Assembly (NCBI RefSeq): GCF_009914755.1
Contig: NC_060934.1
DNA from: the human T2T-CHM13v2.0 reference genome, Homo sapiens
Length of the DNA: 64,000 nt
Strand: one strand, 5' to 3'
Positions within the stretch are counted from its first letter, which is position 1, and the number at the start of each line of letters is the position of its first letter. Below are positions 35,771-42,000 of the stretch, in pieces. A program made the position numbers and the translations under genes. The notes under the pieces were generated by a model. The model searched no databases and was not told where the DNA came from. It was given only the letters and a program-made list of their open reading frames with translations.

Positions 35771-36372
35771 GCCTCTAGTCCCAGCTACTTGGGAGGCTGA
35801 GGTGGGAGGGTCGCTTGAGCCCATGAGATGGAGGCTGCAGTGAGCTGTGTTTACACCACTGTACTACATCCTGGATGACAGAATGAGACCTTGTCTCAAG
35901 GGAACAAAAAAGGACTCAAATTAAAAATTTTTAAAAATTAGTGTGCCACAGATGCCGAGGTCTTCGGCCATGCCAATTGTCACTTGAGCTTCTAAACTGT
36001 CCCCATTAGAGTCAGGGCTCATCCTCTGAAGGGGCCGTGCTTCCAATCTTCCCTGGTGCAGTGATTTTAAAACATGCAATTTCTTTTCCACCCCTGGCAT
36101 TAAGAGGTGGAGTCTTATTCCTCTTCCCTTGAATATGGGCTGGCCTCTGTGACTCACTTCTAACCAGCAGCATGTGGCAGAAGTAAGGCCATGTGTCTCC
36201 CGGCAGTAGGTCATGAAAGCAACACAGCTACTGCCCGGGTCTTGCTCCTGGGCTCTAGTTCTTGATACCCAGCTCCCACACCATGAGGAAGCCCAGGCCA
36301 CATGGAGAGGACACAGCCTGTGTTCCAGCCGACTGCCCGGCCGAGGTCTCAGCTGCCAGACACATGAGTGAG
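35771..36372 (-). repeat. Inverted duplicate (602 bp) of 41399-42000
   Basis: Line-by-line comparison shows exact reverse-complement identity over 602 bp. Confidence 0.97.
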
Positions 36373-36578
36373 ATTCATCCATGTTGCTGCCTGCATCAGT
36401 AGCTGTTCTTTTTTATTGCTGAGTAGTATTCCACTGTATGGATGTACCACAATGCATGTATTCACCCTACTGTTCATGGGCACTTCGGTTGTTTCCAGTT
36501 TGAGGCACCTATGAACATTCACTTGAAGTATTTGTGTGGACATACATACTCATTTCTCTTTTTTAAATTTAAAATTTG

Positions 36579-37009
36579 TTTTTTTTGAGACAGAGTCTCT
36601 CTTTGTTGCCCAGGCTGGAGTGCAGTGGTGCAATCTAGGCTCACTGCAAGCTCCGCCTCCTGGGTTCACGCCATTCTCCTGCCTCAGCCTCCTGAGTAGC
36701 TGGGACTACAGGTGCCTGCCACCACGCCCAGCTAATTTTTCGTATTTTTAGTACAGACAGGGTTTCACCGTGTTAGCCAGGATTGTCTCAATCTCCTGAC
36801 CTCATGATCTGCCCGCCTCGGCCTCCCAGAGTTCTGGGATTACAGGTGTGAGCCACCACACCCAGCCTTTAATTTTAATTTAAAAAAAAGTAGAGATGAG
36901 GTCTCATTATGTTGCCCAGGCTGGTCTCACACTCCTGAGCTCAAGTGATACTCGTTTCTCAGTCTCCCAAAGTGCTAGGATCACAGGGATGAGCCACCAT
37001 GACTGGCCC
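36579..37009 (-). mobile_element. AluY-like element (36579-36867) inserted in the tail of an older Alu monomer (36868-37009)
   Basis: 'tgcaagctccgcctcctgggttcacgccattctcc'; outer TSD-like CTCATTTCT on both sides. Confidence 0.85.
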
Positions 37010-37461
37010 TCATTTCTTTTAAATATATGCCTAGGAGTGGAATTTCTGAGTCATAGGTAAGCATATTTTTAGCTTTAGTAGATAACTGCCAAACAGTTTT
37101 CTAAAGTTATTGTACCAACTGACACTCCCACTAACAATGTATGGAAGTTCCAGCTATGCCACATCCTCAGCAACCCTTTTTAATTTTAGCCATTTTAGTG
37201 GGTATATAATAGTATCCCATTGGGGCTTTAATTCGCTTTGTCCTGATGACCCTAAAGATGCTGTCTGTCTACCTTCTCACATGATTATTGGTCATTTGGA
37301 TACCTTTTTGTGTATATGTGAAATGCTTGCTCAAGTTTTTTGACCACTGTCTATTGGGCTGTTTACCATTTCTTATTGATGGATGTAAGTTCTCTATACG
37401 TAGTGAACATGAACTTTTGTCAGATGTATGTATTGTGACTATCTTGTCCTACTTTGTAGTT

Positions 37462-37842
37462 TTTTCCTTCCTTCCTTCCTTCCTTTCTCCCTTCCTTCCT
37501 TACTTCCTCCCTTCTTTCCTTCCTTCCTCCCTTCCGTCCCTCCTTCCTTTTCTTTCTTTTGATTCTCTGTTGCTCAGGCTGGAATGCAGTGGTATGATCC
37601 TAGCTCACTGCAACCTGGAACTCCTGGACACAAGCAATCCTCCAGCTTCAGCCTCCTAAGTAGCTAGGACTGTATACAGGCACATGCCACCATGTTCAGT
37701 TCAATTAAAAAAATTTTTTTTTTGTAGAGACAGAGCTGTGCTATGTTTCCCAGGCTGGGCTTGAACTCCTGGTTTCAGTGGATCCTCCTGCCTTGCCCTC
37801 CCAAAACACTAGGTTTACAAGCATGAGCCACTGCACCAGGCC
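37462..37842 (-). mobile_element. AluJ-like element with (CTTC)n tail-derived microsatellite (37462-37560)
   Basis: Antisense Alu dimer preceded by a CTTC/CCTT array. Confidence 0.85.
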
Positions 37843-40812: not shown

Positions 40813-40950
40813 GGTTGTGCACAGTGGCTCACGCCTGTAATCCCAGCACTTCAGGAGACTGAGGCAGGAGGACTGCTTAAGGCCAGGAGTCCAAGACCGA
40901 CCTGAGCAACATAAGGAGACCTCATCTCAAAAAAAAAAAAAAAAAAAAAA
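40813..40950 (+). mobile_element. Alu left monomer (FLAM-like) with A tail; MIR/L2 fragments just upstream (40470-40790)
   Basis: 'gcacagtggctcacgcctgtaatcccagcact...gagacctcatctc' + polyA; no right arm. Confidence 0.8.
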
Positions 40951-41224
40951 TTACATAGGGATGCACCAGCCAAATATGACAAGATGACACCCAGTTTGTA
41001 CTGGGATGCCTGGGTGGGTGGTCATGCCGTTATCTGACATGGGTGTCTAGAAGGAGAGGTGAGGTGGGGTGGGGATGGATAATGACTTCCCACAGGGCTA
41101 TGGTGTTTGGGGGGTTCTGTAGACCTACCACATGAACAGAGCCCAGGCTGAAGGAGGTGCCTGACCAGGGCTCCTGTCAAACGCCATCAGGAATCCACTG
41201 CATGCCCTCAACAGGAGTTCTGGT

Positions 41225-41710
41225 TATCTCTAGCTGTGTAACAAATCACCCCAGACCTAGTGGTGTGAAACAACCTCACTCTATCATCCTTTCTCGCAGT
41301 TCTTAGCACTGACTGGGCTCAGCTGGGCGGTTCTCACTCAGGGCTCTCGGGTGGCTGCAGTCTGATGGTAGTTGGGTCTGGAGTCCTCTCAAGGCCTCCT
41401 CACTCATGTGTCTGGCAGCTGAGACCTCGGCCGGGCAGTCGGCTGGAACACAGGCTGTGTCCTCTCCATGTGGCCTGGGCTTCCTCATGGTGTGGGAGCT
41501 GGGTATCAAGAACTAGAGCCCAGGAGCAAGACCCGGGCAGTAGCTGTGTTGCTTTCATGACCTACTGCCGGGAGACACATGGCCTTACTTCTGCCACATG
41601 CTGCTGGTTAGAAGTGAGTCACAGAGGCCAGCCCATATTCAAGGGAAGAGGAATAAGACTCCACCTCTTAATGCCAGGGGTGGAAAAGAAATTGCATGTT
41701 TTAAAATCAC
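41225..41710 (-). mobile_element. MLT1-family MaLR LTR (donor context of the duplication)
   Basis: 'tagctgtgtaacaaatcaccccagacctagtggtgtgaaacaac...gactgggctcagctgggcggttctc...tcaagggaagaggaataagactccacctctt'. Confidence 0.8.
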
Positions 41711-42000
41711 TGCACCAGGGAAGATTGGAAGCACGGCCCCTTCAGAGGATGAGCCCTGACTCTAATGGGGACAGTTTAGAAGCTCAAGTGACAATTGGCA
41801 TGGCCGAAGACCTCGGCATCTGTGGCACACTAATTTTTAAAAATTTTTAATTTGAGTCCTTTTTTGTTCCCTTGAGACAAGGTCTCATTCTGTCATCCAG
41901 GATGTAGTACAGTGGTGTAAACACAGCTCACTGCAGCCTCCATCTCATGGGCTCAAGCGACCCTCCCACCTCAGCCTCCCAAGTAGCTGGGACTAGAGGC
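41399..42000 (+). repeat. Source copy of the 602-bp inverted duplication
   Basis: The MLT1 and Alu it overlaps both continue beyond its ends here, but are truncated in the 35771-36372 copy. Confidence 0.95.

What the first reader, a model, noticed from the sequence alone, without database searches (positions are those of the whole stretch)
35771..42000. Perfect 602-bp inverted duplication flanking a 5,026-bp spacer: recent templated insertion and candidate polymorphic inversion
Seen: 35771-36372 is the exact reverse complement of 41399-42000, with no mismatches or gaps. The segment is a chimera of part of an MLT1 LTR, unique DNA and half an Alu, so it is not a transposon. At 41.4-42.0 kb both repeats continue past the ends (source). 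The 35.8-36.4 kb copy sits inside an L1M element with no TSD or poly(A). It has apparent TGAG microhomology at the right junction (…gagTGAG|attcatccatg, where L1 resumes), a short filler (~aagatttttgta) at the left, and a probable small L1 deletion. Established: this resembles template-switch repair (FoSTeS/MMBIR or polymerase-theta joining), and identical inverted repeats mediate NAHR inversions and gene conversion. Inference: the copy is very young or actively homogenised, and the 5-kb spacer, 9-15 kb upstream of PPIF, may flip.
Basis: partly seen in the sequence, partly recalled or inferred. Interest (0 to 1): 0.8.

Follow-up and report, generated by a model that had tools for sequence, protein, structure and literature searches.

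The report
Young inverted 602-bp templated duplication
A 602-base piece of non-coding DNA upstream of the human PPIF gene was recently copied, flipped and pasted 5 kb away by a DNA repair or replication slip, giving a perfect inverted repeat that could in principle let the DNA between the copies flip, though no such flip is on record.

Summary
Window 35771-36372 is the exact reverse complement of 41399-42000, with a 5,026-bp spacer, and these are the only two copies in the whole assembly.

The copy at 41399-42000 is the source. An Alu and an old LTR-like repeat run on past its two ends. The copy at 35771-36372 is cut sharply at both ends and sits inside one collinear old L1 3' end.

It has no target-site duplication, terminal poly(A) or poly(A) signal. 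About 25-35 L1 bases are missing at the site. TGAG microhomology is possible but unproven.

Zero differences in 602 bp, including 9 CpGs, imply an age under about 5 My unless gene conversion has acted.

Best reading: a DNA-templated, cis, inverted dispersed duplication with an insertion-site deletion, made by a replicative template switch or synthesis-dependent break repair.

CHM13 carries the un-inverted spacer. A 612-locus catalogue of repeat-flanked inversion candidates lists nothing here. Presence in other humans or apes could not be tested.

This is a new example of a known kind, of modest interest.

The parts
35771..36372 (+). Derived copy of the 602-bp segment, inverted relative to its source. 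Read on the + strand it holds an Alu right half, then an A-rich tail and single-copy DNA, then part of an old LTR-like repeat.
   Evidence: It is the exact reverse complement of 41399-42000. The old repeat stops at or before its right end (paralogue L017 aligns only to query position 489 of 502). It is flanked on both sides by one collinear L1.
41399..42000 (-). Source (template) of the duplication.
   Evidence: An Alu-family register spans the outer end (41841-42036 in family D3). Old-repeat paralogues L013 and L017 align without a break about 175 nt past the inner end.
36373..41398 (.). 5,026-bp spacer between the arms. In this assembly it is in the un-inverted (ancestral-order) orientation.
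   Evidence: L1 continues directly at 36373 in the same strand and register as at 35770. The old repeat continues from the source arm into 41223-41398. GC 0.50, CpG observed/expected 0.16. No Rfam family. No CTCF-consensus-like site.
35480..35770 (+). Left part of the acceptor, an old L1 3' end.
   Evidence: 25 paralogous places at 70-93% identity elsewhere in the assembly. The last bases align to the L1 T-rich motif in the 7-paralogue alignment.
36373..36530 (+). Right part of the same L1 3' end, which resumes right after the insert.
   Evidence: 39 paralogous places at 73-89% identity. It is collinear with the left part in 10 paralogues, which hold a median of about 28 more bases between the two parts.
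42001..42145 (-). Left half of the source Alu, which was not copied.
   Evidence: The sequence reads as the Alu left monomer and linker straight up to the arm. It forms an Alu-Alu inverted pair, 42021-42142 with 40824-40945. It is masked as repeat in the hub table.
41223..41398 (-). Continuation of the old LTR-like repeat beyond the source arm, which was not copied.
   Evidence: Paralogues L017 (query 215-676) and L013 (192-678) cross the arm end at query position 502.

Best explanation
A single, recent, DNA-templated event copied 602 bp from 41399-42000 and placed the copy in inverted orientation 5.0 kb away, inside an old L1 3' end, while about 25-35 bp of the L1 were lost. The most likely route is a replicative template switch of the FoSTeS/MMBIR type. 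In that route a 3' end that had stalled or broken in the L1 annealed to the opposite-strand template a few kb away on the same or the sister molecule, copied about 600 nt, and switched back. Synthesis-dependent repair of a double-strand break using the nearby sequence as a patch would give the same product. The result is a dispersed inverted duplication with an insertion-site deletion. As a by-product it forms a perfect 602-bp inverted repeat that homologous recombination could use to flip the 5-kb spacer or to keep the arms identical.

Shown: the anatomy, the direction of copying, the absence of retrotransposition marks, the un-inverted spacer in this assembly, and the youth of the copy.

Inferred: the pathway, the microhomology, and that the L1 loss happened in the same event.
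For: - The arms are exact and unique in the genome.
- Source and copy are told apart by repeat continuity.
- The acceptor is one collinear L1. Ten paralogues that span the site hold 0, 7, 23, 25, 26, 30, 31, 35, 36 and 40 more bases there. The two low values come from paralogues with gaps of their own in that stretch.
- There is no direct repeat of 6 nt or more between the 40-nt flanks, no terminal A or T run of 6 or more, and no AATAAA or ATTAAA within 60 nt of either end on either strand.
- Identity falls to chance exactly at both junctions. This fits a fresh copy better than a partly converted old one.
- P(0 differences) is 0.52 at 1 My, 0.04 at 5 My and 0.002 at 10 My, under assumed human mutation rates.
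- Donor in cis, a few kb away, inverted, donor intact, small deletion at the acceptor: this is the pattern expected of template switching (established knowledge, recalled).
Against: - The pre-insertion allele was not available. Microhomology, the hallmark of FoSTeS/MMBIR, is therefore only possible: tgag in 8 of 33 L1 paralogues at the right junction, and at the left junction a gcct-like string seen in a few paralogues.
- The L1 deletion could be older than the insertion.
- 602 nt is long for polymerase-theta-type templated insertions, so that variant is less likely.
- No second human haplotype and no ape genome could be examined. An assembly error or a change private to this cell line is not excluded by my calls.
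- The mutation rates behind the age bound are assumed, not measured here.
Confidence: 0.65

Rival explanations
1. RNA-derived patch (a class 2 templated sequence insertion). A transcript crossing 41399-42000 was reverse-transcribed and the cDNA was captured at a double-strand break in the L1 by end joining.
For: The copy lacks a TSD, a poly(A) tail and a poly(A) signal, and shows a micro-deletion at the target. These are the stated marks of class 2 insertions (PMC5110952, passages read). The reported experimental patches were 73-414 bp long, a similar order of size.
Against: Those insertions are described as coming from distant regions on many chromosomes with no positional preference. Here the donor is 5 kb away in cis and inverted, which is what a DNA template switch predicts. 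No annotated transcript covers the donor in the hub table, and no splice junction marks an RNA origin. 602 nt exceeds the reported 73-414 bp experimental range.
Confidence: 0.1
2. An older duplication (more than 5-10 My) kept perfectly identical by repeated gene conversion between the arms.
For: 602 bp of identity is enough for homologous exchange. Inverted repeats of this size are known to convert and to invert: for example, inversions listed as polymorphic with 654-bp and 755-bp repeats appear in Table S1 of PMC13629690.
Against: Identity is 100% right up to both junctions and at chance just beyond them. Conversion tracts rarely cover a repeat to its last base, so old repeats usually keep differences at their edges. 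All 9 CpGs are the same in both arms.
Confidence: 0.08
3. The arms are the duplicated breakpoints of an inversion made by staggered breaks. A later recombination between the arms then flipped the spacer back to its original order.
For: Inversions with inverted duplications at their ends are a known product of staggered breaks (recalled). The present structure is formally what two such steps would give.
Against: It needs two events where one is enough. In this assembly L1 is collinear across the copy and the old repeat is continuous from the source arm into the spacer, which is exactly the state a plain insertion gives.
Confidence: 0.04
4. Not a germline feature of humans at all: an assembly error, or a mutation that arose in the sequenced cell line.
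For: A perfect, zero-age copy is what either would look like. I could not examine reads or a second assembly.
Against: The insert lies in single-copy context and is far shorter than long reads, so a mis-join is unlikely (inference). Clean junctions with a small target deletion look like a biological repair product.
Confidence: 0.08

Closest known systems
Dispersed (interspersed) inverted duplication with insertion-site deletion, a recognised class of complex structural variant usually ascribed to FoSTeS/MMBIR template switching
   Same: The donor is intact. The copy is placed a few kb away in cis, in inverted orientation, with a small loss at the acceptor and no transposition marks. 'Interspersed inverted duplications' are named as part of human diversity in the abstract of bioRxiv 10.1101/200170 (search listing only).
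   Different: Microhomology at the two switch points could not be shown without the empty allele. Only one template jump is seen, whereas many reported cases are multi-step.
Class 2 templated sequence insertion polymorphisms (Onozawa and Aplan; PMC5110952)
   Same: A non-transposon insert with no TSD and no poly(A), and a micro-deletion at the junction.
   Different: Those are described as RNA-derived and drawn from distant loci. This donor is 5 kb away in cis. Whether this insert is polymorphic is unknown.
Human inversions mediated by short inverted repeats (HsInv series, e.g. HsInv0061 with 654-bp repeats and 1.7 kb inverted, HsInv0040 with 755-bp repeats and 3.6 kb inverted)
   Same: Arm length (602 bp), spacer size (5.0 kb) and high identity fall within the range of loci listed as polymorphic in Table S1 of PMC13629690.
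   Different: No inversion has been recorded here, and the locus is not among the 612 candidates. Comparable loci in the same table are listed as not polymorphic: HsInv0064 with 520-bp repeats and 4.1 kb, and HsInv0062 with 668-bp repeats.
LINE-1-mediated insertions (retrocopies, 3' transductions, class 1 templated insertions)
   Same: Both are inserts of non-L1 genomic sequence at a new site.
   Different: There is no TSD of 5 bp or more, no poly(A) tail and no poly(A) signal. The T run next to the left junction is the L1's own sequence.

Membership tests
Template-switch dispersed inverted duplication (FoSTeS/MMBIR-type) | The donor sequence is retained and the copy lies in cis, near the donor | tested here: met
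   Both copies are present, 5,026 bp apart, and are the only two in the assembly.
Template-switch dispersed inverted duplication (FoSTeS/MMBIR-type) | The copy is inverted relative to the donor | tested here: met
   100% reverse-complementary.
Template-switch dispersed inverted duplication (FoSTeS/MMBIR-type) | Microhomology of 2 nt or more at the switch junctions | tested here: inconclusive
   The empty allele was not available. L1 paralogues carry tgag in 8 of 33 and gag in 10 of 33 at the right junction. The left junction is undecided.
Template-switch dispersed inverted duplication (FoSTeS/MMBIR-type) | Small deletion or other scar at the acceptor | tested here: met
   A median of about 28 nt of L1 is missing relative to 10 spanning paralogues. 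That the loss came in the same event is inferred.
LINE-1-mediated retro-insertion (class 1 templated insertion) | Target-site duplication of 5 bp or more flanking the insert | tested here: not met
   The flanks share no k-mer of 6 or more. The only shared 5-mer lies 31 nt from the left junction and 5 nt from the right, so it is not in TSD register.
LINE-1-mediated retro-insertion (class 1 templated insertion) | Poly(A) tail and an upstream poly(A) signal at one end | tested here: not met
   No A or T run of 6 or more in the first or last 60 nt, and no AATAAA or ATTAAA on either strand.
Class 2 templated sequence insertion polymorphism | No TSD or poly(A), with end-joining marks (micro-deletion, microhomology, added bases) | tested here: met
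   The supposed added bases are L1 sequence.
Class 2 templated sequence insertion polymorphism | The template is a distant locus and an RNA intermediate | tested here: not met
   The donor is 5 kb away in cis. An RNA origin is not testable with these tools.
Inverted-repeat-mediated (NAHR) polymorphic inversion | Highly identical inverted repeats at both breakpoints, long enough for homologous exchange | tested here: met
   602 bp at 100%. This is within the 140 bp to 190 kb range of the catalogued loci.
Inverted-repeat-mediated (NAHR) polymorphic inversion | Both orientations of the spacer observed among individuals | not testable with these tools
   Only one human assembly is held. This one has the un-inverted order. 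No entry exists at chr10 79.2-79.5 Mb (hg38; offset recalled) in the 612-locus table.
Transposable element | Many dispersed copies sharing the same ends | tested here: not met
   The full unit has only two copies. The other hits match only its Alu part or its old-repeat part.
Segmental duplication (at least 1 kb, at least 90% identity) | Length of 1 kb or more | tested here: not met
   602 bp. It would therefore be absent from segmental-duplication tracks, which is one reason it may have escaped inversion candidate lists.

The most novel reading that the evidence does not exclude
The insert is human-specific and perhaps still polymorphic. It would then be an inverted repeat caught just after its birth by template switching. 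The 5-kb spacer between ZMIZ1 and PPIF would flip recurrently on haplotypes that carry the insert, unseen so far because the arms are too short for segmental-duplication tracks, and orientation or insert presence would affect PPIF regulation.
Probability: 0.1. Interest if true: 0.55.

Novelty: new member of a known kind. Interest (0 to 1): 0.3.

Why it matters
Repeat-flanked inversions are hard to find, and how their flanking repeats arise is seldom seen directly. This locus shows donor, acceptor and both junctions still intact at zero divergence, so it is a clean example of a repair event creating a recombination substrate.

It lies in the ZMIZ1-PPIF intergenic interval, which the hub table marks as rich in regulatory elements. 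An insert or a flip could therefore be a regulatory variant.

The kind of event is well known, however. No effect on any gene is shown, and whether it varies among people is untested.

Tried and rejected

2. Searches for this locus in print:
- PPIF + inversion + inverted repeats + polymorphic gave 0 papers.
- inversion + inverted repeats + 10q22.3 + human gave 2 papers, both on large cytogenetic rearrangements and unrelated (listing only).
- PPIF/ZMIZ1 + structural variant + long-read gave 10 papers. The one with PPIF text concerns a promoter SNP.
- The main texts of PMC3961182 and PMC6748972 hold no chr10, 10q, ZMIZ1 or PPIF. I did not open their supplements.

3. Table S1 of PMC13629690 (612 candidate loci, hg38) has no number starting 792, 793 or 794 in a chromosome-10 coordinate column, and no 602-bp breakpoint or 5,026-bp inversion size. 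A search for 'chr10' found nothing because the table writes the chromosome as '10'. The hg38 position I searched for rests on a recalled PPIF coordinate.

4. The two supplements held for PMC11794170 (repeat maps of three assemblies) have no match to six coordinate prefixes. The full data sit in an outside repository.

5. A 35-nt left-junction string had no match in the prokaryote genome collection. This was a long shot at human contamination and says nothing either way.

6. Functional content of the region:
- No Rfam family at gathering score in 33000-45000.
- No CTCF-consensus-like site at up to 1 mismatch in the region. The window has 2 in all, no more than shuffles give.
- The one long ORF in the arms matches no Pfam family.

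7. Polymerase-theta end joining as the main route was set aside because 602 nt is long for it (recalled knowledge). Alu-Alu recombination was set aside because the left junction is not between two Alus.
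Full report
**Observation**

The repeat is exactly as described. Window 35771-36372 and 41399-42000 are 602 nt long, 100% reverse-complementary, and 5,026 nt apart. A script confirmed that the strings are identical. 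Outside both ends, identity in junction register is 24.5% and 23.5% over 200 nt, and local alignment scores lie within 200 shuffles. The boundaries are therefore sharp.

In the whole 3.1-Gb assembly the 602-mer has only these two full-length places. The other 43 of 45 reported matches cover arm positions 1-170 at 71-88% identity, which is Alu. With 35905-36372 as query, 2 of 40 reported matches are the arms. The other 38 are partial hits at 68-89% that all fall in query positions 145-468, which is an old interspersed repeat. Query positions 1-144 match nothing else.

The unit is therefore a chimera of an Alu right half, single-copy DNA and part of an old LTR-like repeat. It is not a mobile element. 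I could not test the family names MLT1 and L1M, because no repeat library was at hand.

**Which copy is the source**

At 41399-42000 both repeats run on past the arm.
- An Alu-family register spans the outer end (41841-42036), and the sequence beyond 42000 reads as the Alu left half.
- Two old-repeat paralogues, L013 and L017, align without a break about 175 nt past the inner end, reaching window position 41223.
- At the other copy the same paralogue L017 stops at query position 489 of 502.

So 41399-42000 is the template and 35771-36372 is the derived copy.

**The acceptor site**

Both flanks of the derived copy belong to one old L1 3' end, on the same strand and in the same order.

| Paralogue set | Collinear hits to both flanks | L1 bases missing in the window |
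|---|---|---|
| 25 loci found with the left flank | 7 | 0, 7, 23, 26, 31, 35, 36 |
| 26 loci found with the right flank and aligned from its start | 3 | 25, 30, 40 |

The median over the ten is about 28 nt. The two low values come from paralogues with gaps of their own in that stretch.

In the alignment of the 7 spanning paralogues with the two flanks kept as separate rows, the last bases of the left flank fall on the L1's own T-rich motif.

The bases just before the point where L1 resumes are tgag in 8 of 33 paralogues and gag in 10 of 33. The last 3-4 bases of the arm could therefore be shared between donor and acceptor, but this cannot be settled without the empty allele. At the left junction a few paralogues carry a gcct-like string where the insert begins. 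This is also undecided.

**Retrotransposition marks**

There are none.
- The 40-nt flanks share no k-mer of 6 or more.
- The only shared 5-mer is not in target-site-duplication register.
- There is no A or T run of 6 or more in the first or last 60 nt of the insert.
- There is no AATAAA or ATTAAA near either end on either strand.

**Age**

The arm holds 9 CpGs, and all are identical in both copies. I assumed rates of 0.4e-9 per site per year, and 5e-9 for CpG bases. The probability of zero differences is then 0.52 at 1 My, 0.14 at 3 My, 0.04 at 5 My and 0.002 at 10 My. Without gene conversion the copy is younger than about 5 My at the 95% level, which places it within the human lineage. The rates are assumed, not measured here.

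**Mechanism**

The features are these:
- the donor is intact;
- the copy lies 5 kb away in cis and is inverted;
- about 30 nt are lost at the acceptor;
- the copy has no TSD and no poly(A).

This is the pattern of a dispersed inverted duplication with an insertion-site deletion. From established knowledge (recalled), that pattern is ascribed to replicative template switching (FoSTeS/MMBIR) or to synthesis-dependent repair of a break using a nearby template. I rate this at 0.65.

The rivals are:
- **RNA-derived class 2 templated insertion (0.10).** The junction marks fit, but those inserts are described as coming from distant loci, and the experimental ones measured 73-414 bp (PMC5110952; the first of four parts and selected passages read).
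- **Old duplication kept identical by conversion (0.08).** This is disfavoured by perfect identity up to the last base at both ends.
- **Staggered-break inversion followed by a flip back (0.04).** This needs two events where one is enough.
- **Artefact or a change private to the sequenced cell line (0.08).** This is not testable here.

**The inversion idea**

In this assembly the spacer is in the un-inverted order. L1 is collinear across the copy, and the old repeat runs from the source arm into the spacer.

The arms are long and identical enough to act as a recombination substrate. Table S1 of PMC13629690 lists inversions flagged polymorphic with 654-bp repeats (HsInv0061, 1.7 kb) and 755-bp repeats (HsInv0040, 3.6 kb). 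It also lists similar loci flagged not polymorphic: HsInv0064 with 520-bp repeats and 4.1 kb, and HsInv0062 with 668-bp repeats.

That catalogue has 612 loci. It merges five long-read, Strand-seq or optical-mapping studies of 195 individuals, older paired-end predictions, and inverted segmental duplications of 1-50 kb. It has no entry at chr10 79.2-79.5 Mb in hg38.

Two cautions apply. My hg38 position rests on a recalled PPIF coordinate. The authors also note that loci whose repeats are missing from hg38 could be excluded. A 602-bp repeat is also too short for segmental-duplication tracks. No inversion is on record here, and a common one is somewhat unlikely, but the question stays open.

**Content of the spacer**
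- GC is 0.50 and CpG observed/expected is 0.16, with no CpG island.
- It holds several Alus and a (TTCC)n tract.
- There is no Rfam family at gathering score.
- There is no CTCF-consensus-like site.
- The one long ORF in the arms has no Pfam match.

Nothing found here points to a function that a flip would change.

**Print searches**

Four text searches aimed at this locus or at the inversion literature found no description of it. The main texts of two inversion papers do not mention chromosome 10q, ZMIZ1 or PPIF. I did not open the supplements of those two papers, or any supplements of the five merged studies, and they could bear on this.

**Verdict**

The insertion reading is largely right, apart from the filler. 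The microhomology is unproven and the inversion is untested. This is a new example of a known kind of structural change, with interest 0.3.

Noticed in passing
window 29121-30217: A degenerate dinucleotide (TG)n-like tract about 1.1 kb long (period 2, 547 copies, 68% matches). The repeat finder also shows it as families with 8-14-nt spacing. It is unusually long for such a tract and lies between ZMIZ1 and the duplication.
   Followed up: no
window 44712-45058: A head-to-tail Alu-derived unit of 165 nt, about 1.9-2.0 copies at 84-89%. It looks like an internal or partial tandem Alu duplication.
   Followed up: no
window 41365-41850 (+) and 35921-36382 (-): The duplicated arms carry an open frame of 161 and 153 aa respectively, whose two N-termini differ because the start lies outside the arm. 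Neither matches a Pfam family at E up to 0.1. It is probably a chance ORF.
   Followed up: partly
window 37464-37549: A (TTCC)n microsatellite, 21.5 copies at 81% matches, inside the spacer.
   Followed up: no
window 35772-35899 vs 36585-36712: The Alu part of the new copy forms a 128-nt, 76% inverted pair with a resident Alu only 685 nt away. The insertion therefore also created a close Alu-Alu inverted repeat.
   Followed up: no
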